Below, piece by piece: positions 9,812 to 32,527 of a DNA stretch of 42,336 bases; position 1 is the stretch's first letter; the number at the start of each line of letters is the position of its first letter. A model generated the notes under the pieces. It worked only from the letters and a program-made list of their open reading frames with translations, was not told the origin of the DNA and made no database searches. A program made the translations under genes and the position numbers. Where the stretch lies: positions 1 to 42,336 of the forward strand of contig JAFUEE010000179.1 in NCBI GenBank assembly GCA_017464085.1, given 5' to 3'. This DNA comes from Pseudomonadota bacterium. Its GTDB lineage: Bacteria > Myxococcota_A > Bradymonadia > UBA4248.

Positions 9812-9956
9812 AATATTTTAAATAAACCTGAATAATATTCGGATTTAGCTTGTGTGTTTCCCAGAGTGCGCGTAAAGTGCGCGATATTGTGAGCGCTCGC
9901 AGGTGCAAAGCGCTGATACGTCCGAAGTGGACAGGACTTGCAGAGGGAGAGAGAAG

Positions 9957-11240
9957 ATGGCATTTAATCCTTTTGAAATGGCTCAAAAACAGTTCGATAC
10001 GGTTGCGGAACAGCTCAAATTGAGCAGCAGTATTCGTGCGCTCCTTCGCGAGCCTATGAGGGAATTTACATTCAGCCTTCCTATTCGTATGGATGACGGC
10101 TCAATGAGAGTGTTCAAGGGGTTCCGAGTCCAGCACAATGATGGCAGAGGCCCCTGCAAGGGCGGTATCCGCTTTGCACCAGGAGAGACGATCGACACGG
10201 TGCGCGCGCTTGCGACGTGGATGACTTGGAAATGCGCGGTGGTGGACATTCCGCTTGGGGGTGGCAAGGGCGGTATTGACTGTGACACGCATGAGCTTTC
10301 GATGACGGAGCAGGAGCGTCTTTGCCGCGCTTGGGTGCGCGCGCTTTCGAGCGAAGTCGGTCCGGTTCAGGACGTTCCGGCGCCTGACATGAACACGAAA
10401 GGCTATCACATGATCTGGATGCTCGATGAATATGAAGCGATTCATCATGGCAAATTCCCTGGGTTCATCACGGGCAAGCCCGTTGGGAGCGGCGGATCGC
10501 TTGGGCGTACGGAAGCGACAGGCTATGGTGTGATCTGCTGCCTGAATGAAGCGTGCAAGGCTTTGAGCATCGATATCGCGAAATCGACGGCGGCTGTGCA
10601 GGGGTTCGGCAATGTCGCGTACTATGCCTGCGAGCGTTATCTGAAACTTGGCGGCAAGCTGATCTGCGTGTCGTGCTGGGACAACAGCGACAAGTGTTCC
10701 TACACGTTCAAACGCACGAGCGGCGTGGATATCGTCGAGCTCCGTAAGATCACGAATGAGCATGGCGAAATCGACAAGGCACAGGCCAAGGCGCTTGGCT
10801 ATGAGATCCTTCCGGGCGATGAATGGCTCGCGCAGGATGTGGATATCCTTATTCCTGCGGCGCTTGAGAACCAGATTAACGCGAACACGGTGGGCAAGAT
10901 CAGGCCGGGCGTGAAGATTATTGCAGAAGGCGCGAACGGCCCGACGACGCCCGAAGCTGATGCCGTGATCAAAGAACGCGGAATCTTCGTGATCCCTGAC
11001 TTCCTGTGCAATGCAGGCGGCGTGACGTGCTCATATTTCGAGCAGGTCCAGTGCAATATGAACTATTTCTGGCCAAAGGACGAAGTCCTGACGAAACTGG
11101 ATCAGAAGATGGCGTCTGCGTTCCACGGCGTGTATGAGATGTCCGTCGAGAAGAAGGCTTATATGCGCGATGCGGCATACATGATCGCGATTGACCGCGT
11201 TGCGAACGCATGTGTTGCGCGTGGCTGGGCCATGAAGTAA
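9957..11240 (+). CDS. gdhA: NAD(P)-dependent glutamate dehydrogenase
   Basis: The start is ATG 9957 after GGAGAGAG. The catalytic region 'KGGIRF', 'GGGKGG' and the dinucleotide fold 'GFGNVAYY' are present, for a product of about 427 aa. Confidence 0.92.
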   Translation: MAFNPFEMAQKQFDTVAEQLKLSSSIRALLREPMREFTFSLPIRMDDGSMRVFKGFRVQHNDGRGPCKGGIRFAPGETIDTVRALATWMTWKCAVVDIPLGGGKGGIDCDTHELSMTEQERLCRAWVRALSSEVGPVQDVPAPDMNTKGYHMIWMLDEYEAIHHGKFPGFITGKPVGSGGSLGRTEATGYGVICCLNEACKALSIDIAKSTAAVQGFGNVAYYACERYLKLGGKLICVSCWDNSDKCSYTFKRTSGVDIVELRKITNEHGEIDKAQAKALGYEILPGDEWLAQDVDILIPAALENQINANTVGKIRPGVKIIAEGANGPTTPEADAVIKERGIFVIPDFLCNAGGVTCSYFEQVQCNMNYFWPKDEVLTKLDQKMASAFHGVYEMSVEKKAYMRDAAYMIAIDRVANACVARGWAMK

Positions 11241-11257
11241 GCTGAGTTTCTGAGTCG

Positions 11258-11288
11258 AAAAAAAGCGCCTGAATGGGCGCTTTTTTTG
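11258..11288 (+). terminator. Rho-independent terminator of gdhA (AAAAGCGCC-tgaatg-GGCGCTTTTTTT)
   Basis: A perfect GC stem is followed by a T7 tract. Confidence 0.85.
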
Positions 11289-11412
11289 TGCGGATAGTTG
11301 CCTTCCGGGATGTCGTTGAGCAGTTAATCAGATATCTGGTTTGAAAAAGCGCGAACTAAACGGTATAACGGCAGAAGATGGTGTTTTCGCCAACGACTTT
11401 AAGGAGATTAGT

Positions 11413-13893
11413 ATGAAAAAAGCCCGTATAGCGATTTTAGTGTGTATGCTTTCAGGGTGTTTTGCCGTGTGCGGGTGCGGAAGCAGTGACGTGATCATCG
11501 GCAATACCGGCGGAAGCGGCGGAAGCGGCGGAGGCAATCAGGATAAGCCTTGCGTCGGGGATGCGTGTGATACGGAGGATGCGTGTACGGCGGAGAGCTG
11601 TCCGGATGGAGAGTGCGTGGATGGTCAGTGTGTACCGGATTGCACGGGCGATTCCTGTGGCGAGCCGGAGACATGCACGTTTGAGACTTGTCCGGATGGG
11701 GATTGTGTAGACGGTGAATGCGTGCCGCGTGAGGAAACGTGCAATGCCGAGACATGCCCGAATGGAAAATGCATCGCTGGGGAGTGTGTCATACCGAAAT
11801 GCGATGCGCCCGATGCGGACAATGACGGCATATCCGATGAGAATGAGGGGCGTGCGGAGAATCGCGACAGCGATGGCGATACGGTGCCTGACTATCTGGA
11901 CGATGACAGTGACGGGGACACGATTCCTGATCGCATCGAGGCTGGTAATGAAGGCTGCGCCAACACAAAGCCGGTTGATACGGACAGCGATATGATTCCG
12001 GATTATCTGGATGATGACAGCGATGATAACGGCATTCCTGACAGCCTGGAAGCCGGCGCGAATCCTCAGAGCCCGATAGACACGGATGGGGATACGGTGC
12101 CGGATTATATCGATGATGACAATGACGGGGATGGCATTCCCGACATTCTCGAGATTTATGGCGAAGTCGTGAGCGGCGCGAATCTTCCGGAAGGCAAGAT
12201 CTCTGCGGATTGCGATGGGGACGGCCAGGCGGATGATGCTGGGACGGCAGAGAATCCGCGTGATTGCGATGCCGATGGCGTGCCTGACTATATGACGCCT
12301 GACAGTGACGGCGATACGCTTCGTGACGATTATGAAGGCAGCAGGCGCGTCGGGCCTTATCTTGCGAGATATTCGACAGACAGCGATTCCAATGGGATAT
12401 CCGACGCGGATGAATGCCGTGGGCAGATGTCTGATGGCTATCAGATCAGCTGTGCGGATACGGACAATGATACGGTTCCGGACTTCCTCGACCTGGATAA
12501 TGACGGCGATTCTCTGTCGGATGTGTATGAAATCGGCAAGGGATATGACCCGAATAATTCTGATTCGGACGGTGACGGCGCGGACGACCTGATCGAAATC
12601 GGGGCAGGGACAGACCCGAAGGATCCGAATGTGAATCCGCAGAGCGAGGGAAACTTCGTGTTCAAAGTGCCGTATAAGAAGAAAGCCGAGCCAGAGAAAC
12701 AGTCGCTGAGCTTCGCGACATCGGTCCAGACGGTGGATATTTACTTTGCCGTCGATACGAGCGGCTCGATGAGCGGGGAGATAAATACACTTAAGAGTGA
12801 GCTGCCTGCGATGCTTGAGGAGATGCGCTGCAAAGACCTTGGCCGTAATTGTGCGGACAATAATGACTGCGAAGGGCTGAATGGAGGGAAGGCGATCTGT
12901 AGCGAGTCTGGACGTTGTATTGTGGATCCGTCAGAAGGTGATGGTTGTTTTGCGGATATGTGGACGGGATTTGGCGTCTGGGGCAATGTGAACCGGTTTG
13001 AAAACTGGCAGTCTCTTGATGCGACGCCGTCAAACACGACGAAAGAACTGGGTAATGTAAAGTTAAATGATCAGGGAATGTCTGAAAATAGCATTCAGGT
13101 CGGGGCGTGTGTTTCAGAAGGCACGAAATACTGCAAGAATACATCGTCGATTAAATGTTATCAAGGAAGTGGTCGCGTTGGTTGTGTCGGTTTCCGCCAA
13201 GATGCGATTAAAATCTTGATTCAGGCAGGTGATGAGGCGAATTACGATTCTTCTGATTGGAGAGTGACAGATGCCAAGAAGACTGGGGATTCGCTGCGCA
13301 AGAATAATATCCGATATATCGGTCTGTACGGCTGTAGCGGGTCAGGTAGTAAGAAAAAATGTGAGGCACGAGATAAGGGGCAGGCGCAAGTGGCGTGCTG
13401 GGCAGGTTCGTGTGCAGCAGGCGGGAATTGTGCGGCATCTTGCGACAGCATCAGCTCAAGCGAGATGAGCGGGCTTTATCTGGCGGAGATTGCGGACGCG
13501 ACCATTCGCAGTGAGACGATCGCAAATGTGCGCAAGCTCGCGAAAGGCATGAACCTTCACATCACTTCGGGCGTGGAGGATGTGGACAAGGGGGCTGCGC
13601 AGCTCGTGAAGGAGCTGAAGGTGAACATCACGGATTCGGAAGTGCAGGGCCGTACGTGCACGAAAGTGAGCGGGATTTCCGGGGATACGTTCCAGTCGAT
13701 CGAGAAGCTTGCGCCGGGCACGAGCGTGTGTTTCGACGTGATTCCTGTGGACTATCAGGAGCTTTTCCCGCCGACGAACGAGCCTCAGGTGATCAAAGCG
13801 AGAATCAAGGTCATGGGCGACGGCTCGACGCTGAATTCGGGAATCGCTTATTTCCTTGTTCCGCCTGAGATTCAGGAAGAGCATATCAACTGA
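11413..13893 (+). CDS. TSP3-repeat / vWA-domain lipoprotein, paralog 1 (Cys-rich CPDGxC repeats; about 12 thrombospondin type-3 Asp-rich Ca-binding repeats; vWA metal-binding motif 'DTSGSM'; Cys-containing C-terminal domain)
   Basis: The start is ATG 11413 after AAGGAG. The lipoprotein signal is 'MKKARIAILVCMLSGCFAVCGC'. It is 60-70% identical to the next three genes, judged by eye. Confidence 0.85.
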   Translation: MKKARIAILVCMLSGCFAVCGCGSSDVIIGNTGGSGGSGGGNQDKPCVGDACDTEDACTAESCPDGECVDGQCVPDCTGDSCGEPETCTFETCPDGDCVDGECVPREETCNAETCPNGKCIAGECVIPKCDAPDADNDGISDENEGRAENRDSDGDTVPDYLDDDSDGDTIPDRIEAGNEGCANTKPVDTDSDMIPDYLDDDSDDNGIPDSLEAGANPQSPIDTDGDTVPDYIDDDNDGDGIPDILEIYGEVVSGANLPEGKISADCDGDGQADDAGTAENPRDCDADGVPDYMTPDSDGDTLRDDYEGSRRVGPYLARYSTDSDSNGISDADECRGQMSDGYQISCADTDNDTVPDFLDLDNDGDSLSDVYEIGKGYDPNNSDSDGDGADDLIEIGAGTDPKDPNVNPQSEGNFVFKVPYKKKAEPEKQSLSFATSVQTVDIYFAVDTSGSMSGEINTLKSELPAMLEEMRCKDLGRNCADNNDCEGLNGGKAICSESGRCIVDPSEGDGCFADMWTGFGVWGNVNRFENWQSLDATPSNTTKELGNVKLNDQGMSENSIQVGACVSEGTKYCKNTSSIKCYQGSGRVGCVGFRQDAIKILIQAGDEANYDSSDWRVTDAKKTGDSLRKNNIRYIGLYGCSGSGSKKKCEARDKGQAQVACWAGSCAAGGNCAASCDSISSSEMSGLYLAEIADATIRSETIANVRKLAKGMNLHITSGVEDVDKGAAQLVKELKVNITDSEVQGRTCTKVSGISGDTFQSIEKLAPGTSVCFDVIPVDYQELFPPTNEPQVIKARIKVMGDGSTLNSGIAYFLVPPEIQEEHIN

Positions 13894-13925
13894 TTGGCAG
13901 CTGGCCTGCTTTATCGTGGGGTGAA

Positions 13926-13958
13926 GCGAGCCGTCCGCAAGGGCGGCTCGCTTTTTTA
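13926..13958 (+). terminator. Rho-independent terminator after paralog 1
   Basis: GCGAGCCGTCC-gcaa-GGGCGGCTCGC followed by TTTTTT. Confidence 0.85.
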
Positions 13959-14063
13959 TTGGGGCAGAAAATTGCCGGGCGTATCGCGCAGCGATAGCAC
14001 GGCAAAGGCGGCCGTATGCGCCTTTGCGCATAGGCTGCCGCAGACAGGATGTCCTGATGAGGC

Positions 14064-14106
14064 AAAAAAAAATCGAAATCGGAAAAAACATCTGCTAAGT
14101 AATAGG
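14064..14106 (+). promoter_or_regulatory. Conserved A-rich upstream module (A9 tract ...ATCGAAATCGGAAAAAACATCTGCTAAGTAATAG) about 150 bp upstream of paralog 2; homologous copy 16941..16988 upstream of paralog 3
   Basis: The two intergenic regions share this module and neighbouring REP-like palindromes, so the duplication appears to have included the regulatory DNA. The A9/A8 homopolymer could slip. Confidence 0.4.
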
Positions 14107-14213
14107 CGTTTGCGATTTTGGACTGAATGTCCGGCTGGTTTTTAGACGTAGAAGCCCGTTCAACGTGTTGATGCGTTTTGTTGTGATGCCTATCCGTGGG
14201 CAGGAGATTTGAT

Positions 14214-16739
14214 ATGAAGAAAGTGCATCTCATGATGCTTGTCTGGTTGATTGGCAGCGCGTGTGCTGCGACCGGTTGCGATGAAAAGACGAGTGAAGAG
14301 GCGCAGAAGCAGGCAGAATGCGTGGGGGATGCTTGCGAGCCGTCGTGCACGCCGGAAAATTGTCCGGACGGCACATGTGAGGATGGCAAATGCGTGAAGC
14401 CGTGTTCAGGAAGTGCGTGTGGGACGGTGGAGACGTGCAGCGCCGAGACATGCCCGGACGGAGACTGTGTGGATGGGGCGTGTGTGCCTCGTGCTGAGTC
14501 GTGCAGCGCAGCGACGTGTCCAAATGGCAAGTGCATCCAGGGCGAATGCGTGATCCCGAAATGCGATGCGCCGGACGAGGATAATGACGGCATTTCGGAT
14601 GAGGATGAAGGGCGCGCGGAAAACCGCGACAGCGATGGCGATACAGTGCCGGATTATCTGGATGAGGACAGCGACGGGGACACGATCCCGGACCGCGTGG
14701 AAGCGGCGAATGACGGATGTTCGCGCAACAAGCCGGTAGATACGGACGGCGATGCGATTCCGGATTATCTGGATGAGGACAGCGACGATAACGGGATACC
14801 GGACAGCGTGGAAGCAGGGGCGGATCCGAAGAATCCGGTGGATACGGATGGCGACGGGGTGCCCGATTACCGCGACGATGACAATGATGGGGATGGATTT
14901 TCTGATATCCTCGAGATTTATGGTGAAGTGGCTGCCGGTGTGGAAGTGCCGGTGGGAAAGATTTCTTCGGACTGCAATGGCGATGGCGTGGCGGACGATA
15001 TGGGGACGCTCGATAAGCCGAGGGATTGCGACGGCGACGGGGTGCCCGATTACATGTCACCGGACAGTGACGGCGACTCTTTGCCCGATGCTTATGAAGG
15101 AAGCAAACGTGCTGGGCAGTGGCTCGCAAGATATTCGAAAGACAGCGACCTGAACGGCATTCCGGACAAGGAAGAATGCGGCGGGACGAAGGACGAGGCC
15201 GGGCATCAGACGGATTGCGTGGATACGGACGGGGATACGCTGCCAGATTTTCTGGATCATGACAACGACGGCGATTCGCTTTCGGACGTGTATGAGATCA
15301 GCAAAGGGTACGATCCCGGCAAAGCTGACAGCGACGGGGACGGCGCGGACGATCTGATCGAGGTCGGCGCTGGGACTGATCCGATGGATCCGAATGTGAA
15401 TCCGCAGAGCGAGGGCAACTTCGTGTTCAAGGTGCCGTACAAAAAGAAAGCAGAGCCTGAGAAGCAGTCGCTGAGCTTTGCGACTTCGGTGCAGACGGTC
15501 GATATCTATTTTGCCGTGGATACGAGCTCTTCGATGGGGGATGAAATCAAGACATTGAAGACTGAGCTCCCTGCGATGCTGGATATGATGCGCTGTCGTG
15601 ACCTTGAGCGTGACTGCGTCGCCAATTCGGACTGCAAGGATCTGAATGACGGCAAGGCGATCTGCAGTGTCGCTGGGCGATGCATCGTGGATCCCAATTC
15701 GGTTGTCGAGAAGAATCCTGAGACGAAACAGGATGAGGTCGTCGGGTGTTTTGTGGACATGTGGACGGGCTTCGGCGTGTGGGGCAACCTGAACACATTC
15801 AGCAACTGGCAGTCTCTGGATGCCGATCCGAGGAAGACGACGAAGGCGCTCGATATCGTCAATATGGATTCTCAAGGCGATAATGAAAACAGCGTCCAGG
15901 TGGGGGCCTGTGTGTCTGAAGGGCTCACCTATTGCTGCAGGAATATGGACAATGTGTGCACTCAGGAAGAGGCGCAGGTATGCCAGAATGAGGACAAGAT
16001 CAAGTGTTATGACGGCGATGACCGTATCGGGTGCGTGGGGTATCGAAAGGATGCGATCAAGATTCTGATTCAGGCTGGGGATGAGCGCAACTTTGAATCG
16101 GGCACTGTCGAGCAGAAGTGCTGGCGATACAGCAATGCTGAGCGGACGGGCACATCGCTTCGGAAGAATAATATCCGATATATCGGTCTGTATGGCACGC
16201 CTGAGGCGCGCGACAAGGGGCTGAGCCAGGTGGCTTGCTGGGCCGGCTCATGCGCGGCGGGCGGCAATTGCGCGCTTTCGTGCAATGTCATGTCAGACAG
16301 CGAGAAAGCGGGGCTGTATCTTGCGGCGATTCATAACGAAGATATCAAGGAAAAGACGGTATCTATGGTGCGCAAGCTCGCGAAAGGCATGAACCTGCAC
16401 ATCACATCTGGTGTCGAGGATATGGATGCGGATGCGTCCAAGCTCGTGAAAGGGCTTCAGCTGAATGTGACGGACGAGAGCGTTCAGGGGCGCAACTGCA
16501 CGAAGATAGACGCTTCGCTCGTATCCTCGGATGCTTTCCCGGGGATTGAAAAGCTTGCGCCGGGCACGACAGTCTGCTTTGATGTGCTGCCCGTCGATTA
16601 TCAGGAAATTTTCCCTCCGAAGGAGGAACCTCAGGTAAAGAAGGCCAAGATCAATATATTTGGTGACGGCTCGATGCTGAATTCGGGGATTGCGTATTTC
16701 CTCATTCCGCCTGAGATACAGGAGGATCAGGTCAACTGA
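14214..16739 (+). CDS. TSP3-repeat / vWA-domain lipoprotein, paralog 2
   Basis: The start is ATG 14214 after CAGGAG. The signal is 'MKKVHLMMLVWLIGSACAATGC', and it has the vWA metal-binding motif 'DTSSSM'. Confidence 0.85.
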   Translation: MKKVHLMMLVWLIGSACAATGCDEKTSEEAQKQAECVGDACEPSCTPENCPDGTCEDGKCVKPCSGSACGTVETCSAETCPDGDCVDGACVPRAESCSAATCPNGKCIQGECVIPKCDAPDEDNDGISDEDEGRAENRDSDGDTVPDYLDEDSDGDTIPDRVEAANDGCSRNKPVDTDGDAIPDYLDEDSDDNGIPDSVEAGADPKNPVDTDGDGVPDYRDDDNDGDGFSDILEIYGEVAAGVEVPVGKISSDCNGDGVADDMGTLDKPRDCDGDGVPDYMSPDSDGDSLPDAYEGSKRAGQWLARYSKDSDLNGIPDKEECGGTKDEAGHQTDCVDTDGDTLPDFLDHDNDGDSLSDVYEISKGYDPGKADSDGDGADDLIEVGAGTDPMDPNVNPQSEGNFVFKVPYKKKAEPEKQSLSFATSVQTVDIYFAVDTSSSMGDEIKTLKTELPAMLDMMRCRDLERDCVANSDCKDLNDGKAICSVAGRCIVDPNSVVEKNPETKQDEVVGCFVDMWTGFGVWGNLNTFSNWQSLDADPRKTTKALDIVNMDSQGDNENSVQVGACVSEGLTYCCRNMDNVCTQEEAQVCQNEDKIKCYDGDDRIGCVGYRKDAIKILIQAGDERNFESGTVEQKCWRYSNAERTGTSLRKNNIRYIGLYGTPEARDKGLSQVACWAGSCAAGGNCALSCNVMSDSEKAGLYLAAIHNEDIKEKTVSMVRKLAKGMNLHITSGVEDMDADASKLVKGLQLNVTDESVQGRNCTKIDASLVSSDAFPGIEKLAPGTTVCFDVLPVDYQEIFPPKEEPQVKKAKINIFGDGSMLNSGIAYFLIPPEIQEDQVN

Positions 16740-16768
16740 TCGGCATGAGGCGCATGCCGATGGATGCG

Positions 16769-16796
16769 AGGCCGCCCTTCGGGGCGGCTTTTTTTG
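16769..16796 (+). terminator. Rho-independent terminator after paralog 2 (GGCCGCCC-ttcg-GGGCGGC + T7), preceded by a CGGCATG/CATGCCG hairpin
   Basis: Seen directly in the sequence. Confidence 0.9.
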
Positions 16797-16940
16797 ATTA
16801 CTTTTTTGGTGGCATGAGACGGCGCTTTTGAGCGTGCTGCACTGCTTGAGCGAGAAAATAGTGGCAGCCGTGCGTATCGGCGCAGCCGATAGCGCGGCTG
16901 GGCGGCAGTATGCGCATGGCGCATAGGCCGCCCGACAATT

Positions 16941-16988
16941 AAAAAGCAAAAAAAATCGAAAAGGGTAAAAACATCTGCTAGATATAGT
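16941..16988 (+). promoter_or_regulatory. Second copy of the conserved A-rich upstream module, about 130 bp upstream of paralog 3
   Basis: See 14064..14106. Confidence 0.4.
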
Positions 16989-17070
16989 CGGATATGCTAG
17001 AGGCTTGTCTGTTGTCAGCACGGCATATTTTTGACCAGTTTGAAGAAAGTCCTTTTTCAGGAGAACGGAT

Positions 17071-19530
17071 ATGAAAAAAATGCATCTCAAGATGCTTGTC
17101 TTGTTACTTGGAAGCGCGCTTCTTGTGTCTGCTTGTGACAGCAATTCGGAAAATCAGGAAGAGAAGCCGGGACCCGGAGTTGGGACTTGTGAAGGGGATG
17201 ATTGCGAGGATCCTGAGGTGTGCACTCCTGCGAATTGCCCCAATGGCACATGCATGTATGGCAAGTGTGTGGAAGCGTGTACGGGAAGTGACTGCGAAAA
17301 GCCGGAAACATGCACGTCTGCGAACTGCCCGGATGGGGAATGCGTGGACGGCGTATGCAGAGAGATTTGCCCGAACGGCCGCAATGAGGATGGCAGCTGC
17401 ATCGTCGTTTCGAAATGTTCCGCGCCTGATGAAGACAAGGACGGGATCTCGGATGAACATGAGGGACGCGCGTCCAATCGTGACACGGATGGCGACACGG
17501 TGCCGGACTATCTGGATGATGACAGCGACGGCGACACGATTCCCGACAGCGTGGAAGCAAACAATGGCGGATGTTCAGGAACCGCGCCCGATGATGCGGA
17601 CTATGACCTGATACCGAATTACCTCGACACGGACAGCGACAACAACGGCATTCTCGACAGCGCGGAAGCCGGTGCGGATCCGGCGAAGCCCGTGGACAGC
17701 GATGGCGATACGGTGCCGGATTATCTGGATGACGACAACGACGGCGACGGCCTGTCGGATGATCTGGAAATCTATGGGGAAGCGGCATTTGGCCTGGATG
17801 TTCCTGAAGGAAAGATCTCTGCGGACTGTGACGGCGACGGCGCGCATGATGATGCAGGGAGCCCGGAACATCCGCGCGACTGCGACAAGGATGGCGTGCC
17901 CGATTATATGTCTGTTGACAGCGATGGCGACACGATCCCGGATCAGCATGAAGGGCAGCACCGCGCGAGCCAGTATTTGGCGCGGTATTCCAAGGACAGC
18001 GATGAGAATGGCATTCCGGACAGCGTGGAATGTCACGGTACGCCCGATGAGAACGGGCTTATGACGGTCTGTGTGGACACGGATGGCGACACGATCCCGG
18101 ATTATCGCTCGCTCGACAATGACGGGGATCTGCTCTCTGATATGTACGAAAAAGAGATCGGCACAGACCCGGACAACGCGGATACGGATGGTGACGGCGC
18201 GAACGATATGGTCGAGATCGGTGCGGGGACGGATCCGCTTGATCCGAATGTCAATCCGCAGAGCAGGGGCGATTTTGTGTTCACCGTGCCTTATGGCAAG
18301 AAATCCACGCCCGACAAGCAGTCGCTGAGCTTTGCGACATCTGTGCAGAAGGTCGATATCTATTTTGCAGTCGATACGAGCATGTCGATGCAGGATGAGA
18401 TCAAGACGCTGCAGGAATATCTGCCCGATATGCTCGAGGAGATGCGGTGCAAAGAGCTCGGCAAGGACTGCGAGAGCAACAGCGACTGTCTGGAACTGAA
18501 TGAGGGCAAGGCGCTGTGCAGCGAGCAGAAGCGATGCATCGAGGATCCGCATACGGTCACGGCTGTGAATGCAGAGGGGGAGGAAGAAATCGTCGGCTGC
18601 TTCACGGATATGTGGACGGGATTTGGCGTGTGGGGCAATCTGAACTCGTTCAAGAACAAGCAGTCCATTAACGAGGACACGAAGGCGACGACGGATGCGC
18701 TCGGCGCAGTTGTTTTTAATGCCGAGGGTGACGATGAGAATACGATACAGCCTCCGGCATGCGTGTCTGAGGGCGTGACGTTCTGCACGAACACTGAGAC
18801 GATCGCATGCTATAAGGGCAAGGAAAAGCGCAAGGGGTGTGTCGGCTATCGCAAGGACGCGATCAAGATTCTCGTGCAGGCAGGCGATGAGCAGAACAAA
18901 AATGACGGTCTCGGCTTCAATGTGTCTGATGCCGGAAAAGTCGGGGAGTCGCTGCGCAAGAACAGCATCCGGTATCTCGGCCTGTATGGCAGCAAGGATG
19001 CTTATGACCATGGCATGAAGCAGCTCGCGTGCTATGCCGGCTCCTGTCCGGACAGCGAGGATTGCGCGGCGACCTATCATGACTGCACACGCATGACCGC
19101 AGCGGAAAACAAGGCGCTTTTCCTCGCGGCGATCAATAACGCGGACATCAAGGAAAAGACTGTCGAGAACGTGCGCAAGCTTGCGAACAAGATGAAGCTC
19201 AAGATCACCTCGGACGTGGAGGATATCGATAAGGATGCGTCGAAACTCGTCAAGGCATTGAAGGTCAATATCACGGATGAGGAAGTTCAGGGCAAGCCGT
19301 GTTCGAAAGTCGAAGGCATTTCCGGAGAGCCGTTCGAGTCTATCGCGCATCTGTCACCGGGCCTGAGCGTGTGCTTTGATGTGATTCCGGAAGATTTCCA
19401 GAAGGTGTTTCCGCCGACGGACAAGCCGCAGCTCAAGCGGGCCAGAATCAAGGTTATGGGCGACGGCTCGACATTGAACACGGGGGTCGCGTACTTCCTG
19501 ATCCCGCCTGGAACGCAGGAAGTCAACTGA
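17071..19530 (+). CDS. TSP3-repeat / vWA-domain lipoprotein, paralog 3
   Basis: The start is ATG 17071 after CAGGAG. The signal is 'MKKMHLKMLVLLLGSALLVSAC', and it has the vWA metal-binding motif 'DTSMSM'. An A7 tract lies in codons 2-3. Confidence 0.85.
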   Translation: MKKMHLKMLVLLLGSALLVSACDSNSENQEEKPGPGVGTCEGDDCEDPEVCTPANCPNGTCMYGKCVEACTGSDCEKPETCTSANCPDGECVDGVCREICPNGRNEDGSCIVVSKCSAPDEDKDGISDEHEGRASNRDTDGDTVPDYLDDDSDGDTIPDSVEANNGGCSGTAPDDADYDLIPNYLDTDSDNNGILDSAEAGADPAKPVDSDGDTVPDYLDDDNDGDGLSDDLEIYGEAAFGLDVPEGKISADCDGDGAHDDAGSPEHPRDCDKDGVPDYMSVDSDGDTIPDQHEGQHRASQYLARYSKDSDENGIPDSVECHGTPDENGLMTVCVDTDGDTIPDYRSLDNDGDLLSDMYEKEIGTDPDNADTDGDGANDMVEIGAGTDPLDPNVNPQSRGDFVFTVPYGKKSTPDKQSLSFATSVQKVDIYFAVDTSMSMQDEIKTLQEYLPDMLEEMRCKELGKDCESNSDCLELNEGKALCSEQKRCIEDPHTVTAVNAEGEEEIVGCFTDMWTGFGVWGNLNSFKNKQSINEDTKATTDALGAVVFNAEGDDENTIQPPACVSEGVTFCTNTETIACYKGKEKRKGCVGYRKDAIKILVQAGDEQNKNDGLGFNVSDAGKVGESLRKNSIRYLGLYGSKDAYDHGMKQLACYAGSCPDSEDCAATYHDCTRMTAAENKALFLAAINNADIKEKTVENVRKLANKMKLKITSDVEDIDKDASKLVKALKVNITDEEVQGKPCSKVEGISGEPFESIAHLSPGLSVCFDVIPEDFQKVFPPTDKPQLKRARIKVMGDGSTLNTGVAYFLIPPGTQEVN

Positions 19531-19547
19531 TCTGAGTGAATAAGTTT

Positions 19548-19577
19548 ACGGGCGCATTTGAATGCGCCCGTTTTCTG
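19548..19577 (+). terminator. Rho-independent terminator after paralog 3 (ACGGGCGCA-tttgaa-TGCGCCCGT + TTTCT)
   Basis: The 9-bp stem is perfect. Coordinates are +/-1. Confidence 0.8.
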
Positions 19578-19639
19578 TATCTGATTGAGTGGCTGCTTGG
19601 ATTGATGCGCGCAGTGCTTGGGGCTGATATGGAATCAAT

Positions 19640-19800
19640 CATAATGTATGGCTGTTCAGAAATTGCATGAAGATTGCAATTTAGAATATTATATATTATT
19701 TGTGGAATTTGTATTTATATAATTATGTATAAATATGGTGATAATATATATAAATTTTCAGTCATTTGAATGGCAATGATTTTTCGGCAGCAGTGGGAAG
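19640..19800. promoter_or_regulatory. Markedly AT-rich island (about 160 bp, visually <25% GC versus a genome around 57%) with the inverted repeat AAATTGCA-N7-TGCAATTT; upstream of paralog 4
   Basis: Compositional contrast is seen directly. Multiple TATAAT-like hexamers are present. Confidence 0.5.
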
Positions 19801-20030
19801 ACACTGATGGGATTCCGGGAGACAATAGCCAGTATGTGCGAGAGGCACATCTGCGAGGCGATTTGTACGGATGGGGCACAGGGCGCATGGTGAAGCTGAG
19901 CGAGATGCCGACGCATGCTCTGTGTTGCCCACAAAAAAATGCGCAGTGATTGCAAATATCTGTTAAGCTATGAAAGTGTTGTGTGTTTGAACAAGCCCTT
20001 TGTGGTGATGTTGTGTTGGAGTGAGTGATC

Positions 20031-22502
20031 ATGGCGATACAGAAGCGTTTGGGGATGATCTTGTGCATGTTTTCCGGAATTTGGGCGTTATCTGGATGCG
20101 GCGGGGAGAAGCCGCATTCGGATAACGATCCGTGCGCGGATGGGGCTTGCCAGGAGGCGCATTGCAATGCCGAGACATGCCCGGACGGGGCGTGTCTCGA
20201 TGGGGAATGCGTCAGAACGTGCGCAGGCGCGTCATGTGATGCGAAGTGCAGCGCCGAGACATGCCCGGACGGGGAGTGCGTGAATGACGAATGCCTCGAG
20301 AAGTGCCTGAATGGCAGAGATGAAACAGGCAGATGCATGGAGGATGCGCCGAAGTGCAAGGCCCCCGATGCGGACCGCGACGGTATTTCGGATGCGGACG
20401 AAGGGCGTTCGGAAAATCGCGATACGGATGGCGATGGAGAGCCAGATTATCTGGACGATGACAGTGACGGGGATACGATACCGGACAGCGTGGAAGCGCG
20501 CAACGGCGGCTGTTCGGATAACAGGCCGGCGGATACGGATTATGACGGGGAGCCTGATTATCTGGATGACGACAGCGACGGCAACGGTATTCCGGACCGC
20601 ATTGAGGCGGGGGCGGATCCAGCGCATCCGATCGACACGGACGGCGACGGGGAGCCCGATGTTGTAGATGATGACAACGATGGGGACGGCATCTCGGATG
20701 TCATTGAAATCTATGGCGAAGTCGCGACAGGCCTTCAGGTGCCTGCGGGCAAGATCTCTGCGGACTGCGACGGGGATGGCGAACCGGATGACGAAGGGAC
20801 TGCGGAAGCGCCGCGCGACTGCGACGCGAATGGGATGCCCGACTATCTCGATCCGGACAGCGACGGGGATACGCTGCCCGATGCGTATGAGCGCTTCGAA
20901 CGCACCGGGCAGTGGTTTGCGCGCTATTCATCCGACAGTGACGGAAATGGGGAGCCGGATCGCGAGGAATGTGGCGGATCGCCGGATGAGAATGGCTATT
21001 TGTCAGCCTGTGTCGACACGGACGGTGACGGCAAGCCGGATTATCTCGATCTCGACGATGACGGCGATTCGCTTCCCGATATCTATGAGAGGGCGCACGG
21101 GCTTAATCCCAAACATCAGGATACGGACGGGGATGGCGCGGATGATCTTATTGAAATCGGTGCAGGCACGGACCCGACAGATCCGAACGTGAATCCGCAG
21201 AGCGAAGGGAATTTCGTGTTCAAAGTGCCGTACCGCGGGAAATCGTCGCCGGAAAAGCAGACCCTGAGCTTCGAGACTGCCATTCAGCTGATAGACCTGT
21301 TCTTTATCGTGGACAACACGGGGTCGATGGGGGAGGAGACGCAGGCATTTGCCGAATCGCTCCCTGCGATACTCCAGACGCTTCAGTGCACGGACAAGGG
21401 CAAGAAGTGCGAGGATAACAATGACTGTGCGGAATTCGAGCATTCGATCTGTTCTGAATCCGGCAAATGCATCCAGTCGCCAGCGTACGGCGATGGCTGT
21501 TTTGACAAGATGCAGACGGGCATCGGGTTTTATTCGAAGATGGATTCATTCTGGGTCGCCAGTGCTGTCGGGGACGATGTGAAAAAGACTGTTTCGGCGC
21601 TCAAGGCACGTTTCAGCTCGATCACGACGAAAGACGAGAGCTATGACGGGTTCTGCTCGACAGGTAATTATGAGCCGCCTTATCAGATGCCGATTTGCGC
21701 GCTTCTGGGCACGGATACGTTCAATGGCAAGCAGTACTGCCGAGCGGAGGGGAATGCGACGTGCAAGGTCTCCCCGACTGCGGACAAGACATGCGGCGTG
21801 TACAGCACGTGCAAGATCGGGTGTTCTGGCGACAGCACTCGCTTGGGGTGCGCCGGCTTCCGGAATGAGGCGATACGCCTGATCATTGAGGTGTTCGACG
21901 AGGAAGAATGCGCGCTGAACAAGGGGGATGATGTCAAGGCGCGCTGCGATTCGTTCCGGGCGTCGATCGGCTCGGTGCTCAAGAAATATACGACGCGATA
22001 TATCGGCCTGTGGGGGACATATAACAACGTCGCGATGGAAGATACGGCAAAGGCGATCAGCCTGGCGGTCAACGGCACAGACCAGTATGCGTTCGAGGCG
22101 CAGGATGCGAATGTCGTGGCCCAGACGATCGATGGCGTCCGCAAAATCGCCAAGAATATGCCGATTGATGTGACCACAAGCGTCGAGGATATCGACGAGA
22201 ACGCATCAAAGCTCGTGAAGGCGCTCAGAGTGAACGTCACGGATGAAGAAGTTCAGGGGCGTGCGTGCACGAAAGTCCCGAACATCAGCGGTGAGGATTT
22301 TCAGTCGATCGGGGCGCTCCACCCGGGCACGAGCGTCTGTTATGACGTGATCCCGCTCGATTATCAGGATGTGATCAGGCCGACGTCGGAGCCGCAGGTG
22401 GTCCGCGCAAAGATCAAGGTCATGGGGGACGGCTCGACGCTGAACTCGGGCATTGCATATTTTCTGATTCCGCCGGTGATCGGGGATGAGCAGGTGAACT
22501 GA
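20031..22502 (+). CDS. TSP3-repeat / vWA-domain lipoprotein, paralog 4 (most divergent: 'DGEPDY' repeat variant; vWA metal-binding motif 'DNTGSM'; longer Cys-rich post-vWA region)
   Basis: The start is ATG 20031; the track ORF starts at an in-frame GTG at 20025. The signal is 'MAIQKRLGMILCMFSGIWALSGC'. Confidence 0.8.
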   Translation: MAIQKRLGMILCMFSGIWALSGCGGEKPHSDNDPCADGACQEAHCNAETCPDGACLDGECVRTCAGASCDAKCSAETCPDGECVNDECLEKCLNGRDETGRCMEDAPKCKAPDADRDGISDADEGRSENRDTDGDGEPDYLDDDSDGDTIPDSVEARNGGCSDNRPADTDYDGEPDYLDDDSDGNGIPDRIEAGADPAHPIDTDGDGEPDVVDDDNDGDGISDVIEIYGEVATGLQVPAGKISADCDGDGEPDDEGTAEAPRDCDANGMPDYLDPDSDGDTLPDAYERFERTGQWFARYSSDSDGNGEPDREECGGSPDENGYLSACVDTDGDGKPDYLDLDDDGDSLPDIYERAHGLNPKHQDTDGDGADDLIEIGAGTDPTDPNVNPQSEGNFVFKVPYRGKSSPEKQTLSFETAIQLIDLFFIVDNTGSMGEETQAFAESLPAILQTLQCTDKGKKCEDNNDCAEFEHSICSESGKCIQSPAYGDGCFDKMQTGIGFYSKMDSFWVASAVGDDVKKTVSALKARFSSITTKDESYDGFCSTGNYEPPYQMPICALLGTDTFNGKQYCRAEGNATCKVSPTADKTCGVYSTCKIGCSGDSTRLGCAGFRNEAIRLIIEVFDEEECALNKGDDVKARCDSFRASIGSVLKKYTTRYIGLWGTYNNVAMEDTAKAISLAVNGTDQYAFEAQDANVVAQTIDGVRKIAKNMPIDVTTSVEDIDENASKLVKALRVNVTDEEVQGRACTKVPNISGEDFQSIGALHPGTSVCYDVIPLDYQDVIRPTSEPQVVRAKIKVMGDGSTLNSGIAYFLIPPVIGDEQVN

Positions 22503-22711
22503 GTGCCGGGGCGTTGGCTCAGGCATTCGGGACTTCGATATGCTTGTTTTGTTTTGGGGAGGGGGAAGACTCCCCCTTCGCGGCTATTTGCAAGCAAATA
22601 CGCCGCTGCCCCCTCGACATTGGGCTTGCAGGTGCCAAATTCAATGGTGAATATTGAGCGAATAATTTATACTCAGAGAAGCACATTTTCGTGCTTGTAG
22701 CGGAGAGTGAT

Positions 22712-23350
22712 ATGGTCAGCTGGTTTTCTGGATTGAGCGGGTTTGAGCAAGTTTTTTATGTGATTGCTTTTATATCGACATTATTTTTTATACTGAAGAC
22801 TGTGCTGATGACCTTGGGCATAGGCAATGGCGGGATTGATATCGATGGCGACGGGATTGTGGATATTCCGGACAGCTTGGATATCAATGGCGATGGCGTG
22901 CTCGACAGCGCGGACGAGAATGCGGCATCAGCGCTTCATTTTTTCAGCCTTCACGGCATTCTGGCATTTTTCTGCGTGGGCTCGTGGGTGACGCTTGGCA
23001 CGCTGAACGCGTTTGGCATTCATATTCTTGCGCTGTTGTGCGGGTTTGTGGCAGGCAGCATCATGCTCGTGGTATGTGCCTATCTGACGCGCGCCCTGAT
23101 GAGCCTGGAAGCGAGCGGCAATGTGAACACGAAGCGCGCGATCGGCAAAGAAGGGGAGGTCTATCTGATGATCCCGCCGCACGAGAAGGGCAAGGGCAAG
23201 GTCAATATCGAGCTCAATGGCAAGCTGTGCGAATATGATGCGGTGAGTCTGGATCCGATGCCGATCAAGTACGGCACGCAGGTGCGCGTTGTCGATGTGC
23301 TCGACGACGATGTGATGGTCGTTCAGCGCCTGGCAGAAGAGCTTGAATAG
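22712..23350 (+). CDS. NfeD-like membrane protein (N-terminal TM helices, Asp/Gly-rich loop, C-terminal OB-fold 'GKVNIELNGKLCEYDAVSL...VRVVDV')
   Basis: The start is ATG 22712 after GGAGAG. This is the typical partner of SPFH/flotillin proteins. Confidence 0.7.
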   Translation: MVSWFSGLSGFEQVFYVIAFISTLFFILKTVLMTLGIGNGGIDIDGDGIVDIPDSLDINGDGVLDSADENAASALHFFSLHGILAFFCVGSWVTLGTLNAFGIHILALLCGFVAGSIMLVVCAYLTRALMSLEASGNVNTKRAIGKEGEVYLMIPPHEKGKGKVNIELNGKLCEYDAVSLDPMPIKYGTQVRVVDVLDDDVMVVQRLAEELE

Positions 23351-23464
23351 CGTTCCGCGCAAGGTGAAAGTTTAGTTTTGGGGAGCTTGTCGGCAGTGAT
23401 GACTGTGCATGATTTCATTTTGCGGACGAAAATTGAGTAATTTGACGGAAACCATGTTTTACTT

Positions 23465-23636
23465 AAGGCTGTGTTCAACGTCCGTGGATATGAAATACAA
23501 GGCAGCAGGCAATAGAATGTAGGCAGTAGTGCGCATGATAAAGGCAAAAGCTTTTATATGGAGAGGCTATTGATGCTTGATTGCCGATAATACATGGCAT
23601 TTGGGAGCCATATCCACGCCTGTTGAACAGAGCCTT
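23465..23636. mobile_element. MITE family A copy (about 170 bp; TIR TAAGGCTGTGTTCAAC ... GTTGAACAGAGCCTTA)
   Basis: It is homologous to 210..371 in inverted orientation and to 25728..25922. It sits between the NfeD-like and flotillin genes. Confidence 0.7.
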
Positions 23637-23641
23637 ACTTA

Positions 23642-23754
23642 AGGAAGCTCTGAATAATTCGAAAACCTCCTGGGGATGCGGGCGTCTCGCCCGCACAAAA
23701 CTTATGCGTCTGAAATACTATTGTCCAAAAAACGGCAATTGTTCAGACCTTCCT
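23642..23754. mobile_element. MITE family B copy (113 bp), immediately adjacent to the MITE-A copy
   Basis: It is nearly identical to 5350..5462. Confidence 0.7.
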
Positions 23755-24052
23755 TAATTATTATTTATAATGCAGGTCTTTTATCGTCATGGAGTGATGG
23801 GGAGATTCTGGCGGATTTGCCACTTGATGCAGCTGTGATAGGTAAGGAAAGTTTAACTTCAAGTGTGTTTGGCAAGTGAAATGGCGTTGCAACTGCAGGC
23901 GTGTTAGGGTAGAAATAGATACGTGAGCTTGGTGCGGTCTTAAAAAAAGATAACGCGCCGTATGAAATAGGCGCGTTTGGGGAGCGTATTTTCGCCTGGC
24001 GAAAATAGCTCCCTGTACGCAAAATCATCACCCACACGAGGAGGGAAAAGCC

Positions 24053-25723
24053 GTGGATGACATGATACTTTGGATTGTTGTTGCTGTTTGTGTGATCATT
24101 GTGATCAGTTTGATTGCGGGGTTCATGAAGCGTTATCATCGCTGCCCGTCGGATAAGGTGCTTGTCATCTACGGACGTCTTGGCAAGGATGCCAATGGAG
24201 AGCAGAAGTCGGCCAAATGTATCCACGGCGGTGCGGCATTTGTGTGGCCGTTCCTTCAGGATTGCCAGTTCCTCGATTTGACGCCGTTTTCGATCAACAT
24301 CGACCTGAGAGGCGCGCTTTCGAAGCAGAACATCCGTGTGGACGTGCCCGCGAGCTTCACGGTCGGCATCTCGACAGAGCCGAAAGTCATGCAGAATGCG
24401 GCAGAGCGCCTCCTTGGCCTTTCGCTCCACAATGTCGTGAGCCTTGCGAATGAAATCATCCTCGGCCAGCTTCGTCTGATCATCGCGACGATGGATATTG
24501 AAGAGCTGAACACGCAGCGCGACAAATTCATGAGCGAAGTTCAGCAGTGCGTGGAATCGGAGCTCAAGAAGATCGGCCTGAAGCTGATCAACGCCAACCT
24601 CACGGATATCCGCGACCAGTCCGGTTATATCGAAGCTCTCGGCAAAGAGGCGGAAGCGAAGGCGCTGAACGAAGCGAAGCGCAACGTTGCTGAGCGCAAC
24701 CGTGAAGGTAACACGGGTGAAAAAGACGAGAAGGCTCGCGAAGCGATCGAACTGGCGCAGAAAGATCGTGAGCAGCGTGCCGGTGTTGCGAAGGAAATGG
24801 CGGCGGCCATTGCGGCGGAAAAAGAAGCAGAGACGAAACAGCGCTCTGACATCGCGAATGCGGATGCGGCAGCCATCGCGGCAGAAAAAGCGGCTGAGAC
24901 GAAGAAGAGAGCTGACATCGCGAATGCGGATGCGGCGGCCATCGCGGCAGAAAAAGCGGCTGAGACGAAGAAGAGAACGGATATCGCGAATGCGAACGCT
25001 GAAGCTGTGGCTTCCGAAAAAGCGGCAGAAAAAGAACAGCGTGCGGCAGTGGCCAATGCCAATGCCGAGGCCATCGCGGCAGAAAACCAGGCTGCTGCAG
25101 CCATCGCGCTCTCTGAAGCAAGCCGTCGTGAGGCCGAAGCTGAAGCCCGCGCCCGTGCATACAGCGCCGAAAAGGTCAAGAATGCCCGCGCTTTGAGCGA
25201 AGCGTATGCAGCAGAAGAAAAAGCAGAAATCGCCCGTGCCGAACGTCAGAAAGCGACGATGCAGGCCGATGTCCTCGTTCAGGCCGATATTGAAAAACGC
25301 CGTATCGAGATTGCTGCTGAGGCTGAAGCTGAAGCCATCCGCCGCAAGGCAAAAGGTCAGGCAGACGCTATGCTGGTCAAGATGCAGGCGGAAGCTGACG
25401 GTATCAAGGCTCAGCTCGCGAAACGCGCTGAAGGCTTCATGATGCTCGTCAAAGCCGCCAATGGCGATCCGGATGCCGCTGTCCGCTTGATGATGACTGA
25501 TAAGGTCGAAGATATCGTCAAGGCTCAGGTCGAGGCCATCAAGGGCGTGAACATCGACAAGATCACGGTTTGGGATTCGATGAGCGGTCAGGACGGTGCG
25601 TCCACGACTTCAAACTTCCTCAGCTCCATGATCAAATCAGTTCCCCCGATGAAAGATGTTTACAACATGGTCGGGCTGGATGTTCCCGTGATTAAAGACA
25701 AGGCCGAAACAAAAGAAGCCTGA
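24053..25723 (+). CDS. Flotillin-like SPFH/band-7 protein (YqiK/FloT-like) with a long Ala/Glu/Lys-rich repeat region
   Basis: The probable GTG start at 24053 has GAGGAGGG 7 nt upstream; ATG 24062 is the alternative. An N-terminal TM helix is followed by an SPFH core and 21-aa EA-rich repeats. Confidence 0.85.
   Translation: MDDMILWIVVAVCVIIVISLIAGFMKRYHRCPSDKVLVIYGRLGKDANGEQKSAKCIHGGAAFVWPFLQDCQFLDLTPFSINIDLRGALSKQNIRVDVPASFTVGISTEPKVMQNAAERLLGLSLHNVVSLANEIILGQLRLIIATMDIEELNTQRDKFMSEVQQCVESELKKIGLKLINANLTDIRDQSGYIEALGKEAEAKALNEAKRNVAERNREGNTGEKDEKAREAIELAQKDREQRAGVAKEMAAAIAAEKEAETKQRSDIANADAAAIAAEKAAETKKRADIANADAAAIAAEKAAETKKRTDIANANAEAVASEKAAEKEQRAAVANANAEAIAAENQAAAAIALSEASRREAEAEARARAYSAEKVKNARALSEAYAAEEKAEIARAERQKATMQADVLVQADIEKRRIEIAAEAEAEAIRRKAKGQADAMLVKMQAEADGIKAQLAKRAEGFMMLVKAANGDPDAAVRLMMTDKVEDIVKAQVEAIKGVNIDKITVWDSMSGQDGASTTSNFLSSMIKSVPPMKDVYNMVGLDVPVIKDKAETKEA
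24848..24979 (+). repeat. Near-perfect in-frame 63-bp tandem repeat x 2 (DIANADAAAIAAEKAAETKKR), within a wider degenerate repeat tract at about 24797..25088 of the flotillin gene
   Basis: The nucleotide-level direct repeat is visible. Confidence 0.8.
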
Positions 25724-32478: not shown

Positions 32479-32513
32479 CAGGCTGATGGGTGTTGTTCAT
32501 CAGCCTTTTTTAT
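32479..32513 (+). terminator. Rho-independent terminator (AGGCTGATG-ggtgttgtt-CATCAGCCT + T6) only about 15 bp upstream of the next start codon
   Basis: Seen directly in the sequence. The implication is partial read-through into the AAA gene or an independent downstream promoter. Confidence 0.75.
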
Positions 32514-32527
32514 ATATAGGAACAGGG

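What the first reader, a model, noticed from the sequence alone, without database searches (positions are those of the whole stretch)
11413..22502. Tandem quadruplication of 820-850-aa TSP3-repeat/vWA lipoproteins, each with its own promoter and terminator
Four head-to-tail paralogs (11413-13893, 14214-16739, 17071-19530, 20031-22502) share one architecture. It runs lipoprotein signal, 3-4 Cys-rich 'CPDGxCxDGxCV' modules, about 10-12 thrombospondin type-3 Ca-binding repeats (DxDxDGxxDxxD), a 'NPQSEGNFVFKVPY' linker, a vWA domain with a DxSxS metal-binding motif, and a Cys-containing C-terminal domain ending 'YFLIPP'. Paralogs 1-3 are very similar to each other. Paralog 4 is clearly diverged, with DGEPDY repeats and a rewired post-vWA region. 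Each gene is followed by a clean intrinsic terminator. Paralogs 2 and 3 even share their upstream regulatory DNA, which suggests recent duplication with independent expression. The combination of eukaryote-like TSP3 and vWA adhesion modules on an outer-surface lipoprotein, amplified fourfold, is unusual. It may be a variable adhesin or cell-cell interaction family. I do not recognise a characterized family with this exact architecture.
Basis: partly seen in the sequence, partly recalled or inferred. Interest (0 to 1): 0.72.

Follow-up and report, generated by a model that had tools for sequence, protein, structure and literature searches.

The report
Four tandem integrin-beta-like calcium-stalk lipoproteins
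Four neighbouring genes in an uncultured Bradymonadia-like myxobacterium each encode a lipid-anchored protein with a calcium-binding thrombospondin-type stalk and a head shaped like the ligand-binding head of animal integrin beta chains. They are probably metal-dependent adhesins, an uncharacterised cousin of the Myxococcus gliding adhesin CglD rather than something wholly new.

Summary
The four + strand genes are real, at 11413-13893, 14214-16739, 17071-19530 and 20031-22502. All share one architecture: lipoprotein signal, Cys-rich hairpin modules, a TSP3 stalk with exactly 14 DxDxDxxxD loops, and a C-terminal head.

Pfam and NCBIfam scans do not reach threshold for TSP3 or VWA. Deeper tests support both:
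- A family profile hits COMP at E=4e-7.

The paralogs are 60-71% identical at DNA level, synonymous sites are near saturation, and a related species carries the same four genes in the same order as 1:1 orthologs.

Paralog 4 differs mainly inside the beta-I domain (20-39% identity to paralogs 1-3), yet that domain is 74-91% conserved between orthologs. There are therefore two old head types.

Clean terminators follow genes 1-3 only. A promoter-like motif upstream of genes 2-4 is conserved across the two species.

The closest characterised protein is M. xanthus CglD, a beta-integrin-like, COMP-like outer-membrane lipoprotein. These genes fail the CglD model and have a different domain order. Verdict: a new variant of a known kind, of moderate interest.

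The parts
11258..11287 (.). Hairpin flanked by an A tract and a U tract (bidirectional terminator). It closes the upstream glutamate dehydrogenase gene (9903-11240) and insulates paralog 1.
   Evidence: Fold -17.5 kcal/mol, z -4.6; sequence; GDH by Pfam.
11413..13893 (+). Paralog 1, 826 aa, head type A. Signal peptide and lipobox: residues 1-22 (11413-11478). Cys-rich hairpin modules: residues 47-130 (11551-11802). TSP3 stalk: residues 131-403 (11803-12621). Beta-integrin-like head: residues 404-826 (12622-13890).
12754..12768 (+). D448-T-S450-G-S452, the MIDAS-type DxSxS motif of paralog 1. It sits on the first strand-to-helix loop of the beta-I domain.
   Evidence: D and the last S are invariant in 79 family members. 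The family profile aligns this stretch to the DLSYSM motif of integrin beta-1.
13923..13954 (+). Intrinsic terminator of paralog 1: 14-bp stem followed by a U tract.
   Evidence: -28.1 kcal/mol, z -4.6.
14064..14101 (+). Promoter-like motif of paralog 2: A tract, TCGAAA, 17 nt, TGc-TAAGTA (extended -10-like).
   Evidence: Shared with the motifs upstream of paralogs 3 and 4 and of their orthologs in L082. Promoter function is inferred.
14214..16739 (+). Paralog 2, 841 aa, head type A.
16768..16791 (+). Intrinsic terminator of paralog 2.
16948..16984 (+). Promoter-like motif of paralog 3: A tract, TCGAAA, 17 nt, TGc-TAGATA.
17071..19530 (+). Paralog 3, 819 aa, head type A. It has one Cys-rich module fewer than paralogs 1 and 2.
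19548..19571 (+). Intrinsic terminator of paralog 3: 10-bp stem with an interrupted U tract.
   Evidence: -19.4 kcal/mol, z -3.9.
19933..19969 (+). Promoter-like motif of paralog 4: A tract, about 18 nt spacer, TGt-TAAGCT.
20031..22502 (+). Paralog 4, 823 aa, head type B. The beta-I domain is 20-39% identical to paralogs 1-3, and the MIDAS motif reads D-N-T-G-S.
22556..22579 (+). GC-rich hairpin downstream of paralog 4 with no U tract. It is not a canonical intrinsic terminator.

Best explanation
Each gene encodes a lipid-anchored, disulfide-rich extracytoplasmic protein built as a stalk plus a head.

Layout, from the acylated Cys outward:
- a short disordered spacer;
- two to four 4-Cys beta-hairpin modules;
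- a roughly 280-residue thrombospondin/COMP-type calcium 'wire' with 14 DxDxDxxxD loops of fixed spacing;
- a head made of an integrin beta-I-type VWA domain set in a hybrid-like beta-sandwich (two strands before the VWA domain, the rest after it).

The head carries a MIDAS-type metal site. In paralog 1 this is D448/S450/S452, plus the invariant E558 and D607.

The most likely mechanism is integrin-like. The stalk is rigidified by Ca2+. The head binds an acidic side chain of a ligand through the MIDAS cation. The ligand would lie on a surface, a matrix polymer, prey or a neighbouring cell.

The four genes are old, separately transcribed paralogs with two ancient head types: A in paralogs 1-3 and B in paralog 4. 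They most likely provide four different binding specificities, not a variable cassette.

Shown here: the architecture, the fold relationships, the age and orthology of the copies, and the per-gene terminators. Inferred: Ca2+ and MIDAS chemistry, outer-surface location, the adhesin role, and promoter function.
For: - Genes, lipobox and motifs.
- TSP3 region: the family profile hits COMP 3fby (E=4e-7) and thrombospondin-1 1ux6. All four genes have 14 loops with identical spacing. The model has pLDDT about 97 over this region.
- Head model: pLDDT 94, pTM 0.91.
- Foldseek: the top 26 hits are all integrin beta chains, E 1e-13 to 1e-10, aligned over the whole 423-residue query.
- Sequence profile of the head: the only weak PDB hits are integrin beta-1/6/8 (E 0.026-0.5). 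The alignment covers the hybrid strand, DxSxS and helix 1.
- Some family members hit Pfam Integrin_beta (2.6e-4) or vWA_SIBA-E (1.5e-5).
- Age of the copies: DNA identity 60-71% and saturated synonymous sites. The four-gene array is syntenic with 1:1 orthologs in L082.
- Head specialisation: paralog 4 versus 1-3 is 20-39% identical in beta-I but 67-70% in TSP3, while orthologs keep 74-91% in beta-I. The two head types recur in other genomes.
- Transcription units: terminators, conserved upstream motif.
- Functional precedent: CglD has the same module set, is surface-exposed, and its contribution to gliding depends on Ca2+; gliding-dependent flare formation is compromised by a MIDAS-motif (D656N) mutant (bioRxiv 10.1101/2023.10.19.562135).
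Against: - No experimental data exist for any member. Every homologue found is 'hypothetical', 'VWA domain-containing' or 'putative internalin'.
- Curated HMMs for TSP3, VWA and Integrin_beta are not reached by the four window proteins.
- Mapping E558 and D607 to the integrin MIDAS residues rests on my recollection of the beta-3 sequence and on conservation, not on a superposition.
- Paralog 4 and most family members have Thr in place of the middle Ser (DxTxS).
- Asp at position +2 after the lipid-modified Cys in paralogs 2 and 3 would mean inner-membrane retention under E. coli rules. Sorting rules for this lineage are unknown.
- No partner genes that would point to a ligand or machine lie nearby.
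Confidence: 0.6

Rival explanations
1. The four proteins are the functional equivalents (distant orthologues) of CglD. That is, they are accessory anchors of a gliding (Agl-Glt, focal-adhesion) machine rather than general adhesins.
For: They share CglD's module set: lipoprotein, TSP3/COMP-like region, Cys-rich repeats and a beta-I-like VWA domain with MIDAS. The host is a Myxococcota lineage. The CglD paper reports that cglD never clusters with glt genes, so the absence of glt genes nearby is not informative.
Against: The CglD NCBIfam model scores at most 16-23 bits against a 400-bit cutoff, and only over the TSP3 repeats. No head domain from 17 diverse members hits it at all. Domain order and size differ: here the Cys modules precede the stalk and the protein is about 820 aa, against 1130 aa for CglD. 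[quoted passage not shown] Four copies with two head types do not fit a single stoichiometric machine part.
Confidence: 0.12
2. They are periplasm-facing structural or calcium-handling lipoproteins. In this view they tether or organise envelope complexes, as TSP3-containing BamM or OmpA-type proteins do, and do not contact the outside.
For: The TSP3 region cross-hits the BamM model and BamM structure 9n2d. Asp at +2 of the lipobox in paralogs 2 and 3. Surface exposure is untested.
Against: BamM scores are 21-46 bits against a 315-bit cutoff, over repeats only. The distal domain is specifically a beta-integrin-type ligand-binding head with a conserved metal site, for which an envelope-internal role has no precedent. 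The head has diversified into old types while the stalk stays uniform, which is the pattern expected when heads meet different external ligands.
Confidence: 0.15
3. The array is a contingency or antigenic-variation system. Near-identical cassettes would exchange sequence or be switched on and off to vary the surface.
For: Tandem paralogs of a putative surface protein. In two relatives, the N-terminal halves of tandem copies are homogenised: L002 at 79-87% DNA identity, and L085 at 100% over at least 1.4 kb.
Against: In this window the copies are 60-71% identical with no conversion tract. The order and identity of all four are conserved in another species. Repeat number is fixed. Each gene has a complete start, RBS and terminator, with no silent cassettes. 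In the relatives, homogenisation affects the invariant stalk, not the head.
Confidence: 0.03

Closest known systems
CglD of Myxococcus xanthus (MXAN_0962; NCBIfam NF033765). [quoted passage not shown]
   Same: Lipoprotein; a dozen or so DxDxDG calcium loops matched to COMP 3FBY; Cys-rich disulfide-bonded small modules; a beta-sandwich plus a VWA domain matched to the integrin beta-3 beta-I domain with a DxSxS MIDAS; found in Myxococcota; not clustered with motility genes.
   Different: There is no detectable sequence-model match outside the TSP3 repeats. The proteins are about 820 aa against 1130 aa. The Cys-rich modules lie before the stalk, rather than (apparently) between stalk and head. 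The genes occur as four (elsewhere two) tandem paralogs with two head types. No functional data exist.
Eukaryotic integrin beta subunit headpiece (beta-I domain inserted in the hybrid domain; Pfam PF00362)
   Different: The window proteins have no PSI domain, I-EGF stalk, beta-tail, transmembrane helix or cytoplasmic tail, and are anchored by an N-terminal lipid instead. No alpha-subunit-like partner is seen. Sequence identity is only 10-19%. The window proteins do not reach the Pfam threshold.
Thrombospondin/COMP type 3 repeats ('calcium wire')
   Same: Asp-rich DxDxDGxxDxxD loops in alternating 13- and 18-30-residue spacing with occasional Cys. The profile hits COMP (E=4e-7) and TSP-1.
   Different: There are no EGF type 2 repeats or C-terminal lectin-like TSP domain. 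The Pfam TSP_3 and TSP3_bac thresholds are not reached. Structural comparison could not be done.
MtsC/MtsD cell-cell cohesion proteins and BamM (NCBIfam NF047638, NF047639, NF053691)
   Same: They are bacterial envelope proteins with TSP3 repeats. The weak cross-hits fall in the repeat region.
   Different: Scores are 18-46 bits against cutoffs of 315-800. The head domain is unrelated.

Membership tests
CglD (NCBIfam NF033765, equivalog) | Whole-protein score at or above the curated cutoff (400 bits) on the CglD model | tested here: not met
   Only paralog 3 hits, at 16.3 bits over profile positions 141-251 (TSP3 repeats). No hit from 17 head domains. At most 23 bits in nine other family members.
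CglD (NCBIfam NF033765, equivalog) | Lipoprotein with a COMP-like TSP3 calcium region and a beta-I-like VWA domain carrying DxSxS | tested here: met
   Lipobox Cys; COMP hit at E=4e-7; 14 loops; integrin beta as top fold hits.
CglD (NCBIfam NF033765, equivalog) | EGF-like Cys-rich repeats, placed as in CglD | tested here: inconclusive
CglD (NCBIfam NF033765, equivalog) | Cell-surface exposure and functional coupling to the Agl-Glt gliding apparatus | not testable with these tools
   Needs experiments and a complete genome. No glt, agl or cglB genes lie in the 42-kb window.
Integrin beta chain (Pfam PF00362 and full subunit architecture) | Beta-I VWA fold set in a hybrid-type beta-sandwich | tested here: met
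Integrin beta chain (Pfam PF00362 and full subunit architecture) | Pfam Integrin_beta gathering threshold | tested here: not met
   None of the four window proteins hits at E<=0.01. Only 2 of 17 family heads hit weakly, best 2.6e-4. A few distant members carry precomputed PF00362.
Integrin beta chain (Pfam PF00362 and full subunit architecture) | PSI domain, four I-EGF repeats, beta-tail, transmembrane helix, cytoplasmic tail, and an alpha-subunit partner | tested here: not met
   The proteins end 10-15 residues after the sandwich. Their only hydrophobic segment is the N-terminal signal peptide. No propeller-type neighbour was found.
Integrin beta chain (Pfam PF00362 and full subunit architecture) | MIDAS plus ADMIDAS/SyMBS residue set | tested here: inconclusive
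   DxSxS and the following acidic residue align to beta-1 DLSYSMKDD. E558 and D607 are invariant in the family. Their equivalence to beta-3 E220 and D251 rests on recalled sequence, not on a superposition.
Thrombospondin type 3 repeats (Pfam PF02412 / PF18884) | Pfam gathering threshold | tested here: not met
   Only paralog 3 hits: TSP3_bac at 23.5 bits against a 25-bit cutoff.
Thrombospondin type 3 repeats (Pfam PF02412 / PF18884) | Tandem DxDxDGxxDxxD calcium loops homologous to those of TSP/COMP | tested here: met
   14 loops per protein. The profile hits COMP 3fby at E=4e-7 and TSP-1 1ux6 at 8.7e-4. Many homologues carry precomputed PF18884.
VWA domain (Pfam PF00092) | Pfam threshold, and separately the Rossmann-like VWA fold with DxSxS | tested here: inconclusive
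MtsD / MtsC / BamM (NCBIfam) | Curated whole-protein cutoffs (800 / 350 / 315 bits) | tested here: not met
   At most 46 bits, over repeats only.
Contingency / antigenic-variation gene arrays | Near-identical copies, conversion tracts, silent cassettes or switchable promoters | tested here: not met
   60-71% DNA identity with no tracts. All four genes are complete and conserved as orthologs.

The most novel reading that the evidence does not exclude
The integrin beta headpiece (beta-I in a hybrid-type sandwich), fused to a thrombospondin/COMP calcium wire, is an ancient and widespread Myxococcota invention rather than a one-off in CglD. The head profile finds about 1,400 clusters at 50% identity. 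Its two conserved head types, A and B, are kept side by side in several genomes on homogenised stalks. They might work as a pair, a bacterial analogue of a two-chain integrin head. This lineage might also be a source, or a sister, of the eukaryotic integrin beta and thrombospondin modules.
Probability: 0.1. Interest if true: 0.8.

Novelty: new variant of a known kind. Interest (0 to 1): 0.5.

Why it matters
Until the CglD work, integrin-like adhesion was regarded as essentially eukaryotic. This locus shows a second, sequence-distinct and much larger family of beta-integrin-head/TSP3-stalk lipoproteins.
- It occurs in Myxococcota outside the gliding Cystobacterineae, including host-gut-associated Bradymonadia-like bacteria.
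- It has conserved multi-copy arrays and two old head types.

This gives a compact, well-predicted set of proteins (about 820 aa) for testing three things:
- whether bacterial beta-I heads really do metal-dependent ligand binding;
- what they bind (prey, matrix or host);
- how these modules relate to the origin of eukaryotic integrins and thrombospondins.

For annotation, these proteins escape Pfam and NCBIfam and are currently labelled 'hypothetical'.

Tried and rejected
- Direct Pfam and NCBIfam scans of the four proteins gave no hits at threshold.
- phmmer of the head against PDB sequences found nothing relevant.
- The AlphaFold-database fold library was not available, so I could not see whether CglD or other Myxococcus models are the nearest predicted structures.
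Membership was tested only through the NCBIfam model.
- The genome-collection scan with the broad alignment failed for lack of a conserved stretch. It was repeated with the four-paralog alignment.
- Rfam found nothing across 10800-24200.
- The sigma-70 consensus scan found no more sites than shuffles. The conserved upstream motif came from alignment and cross-species comparison instead.
- I rejected recent duplication, gene conversion within this window, repeat-number variation and a phase-variable cassette system.
- I rejected BamM, MtsC and MtsD membership.
- A MoxR/AAA-coupled VWA role was rejected because no adjacent ATPase exists. The AAA gene at 32486-34792 is 10 kb away, beyond housekeeping genes.
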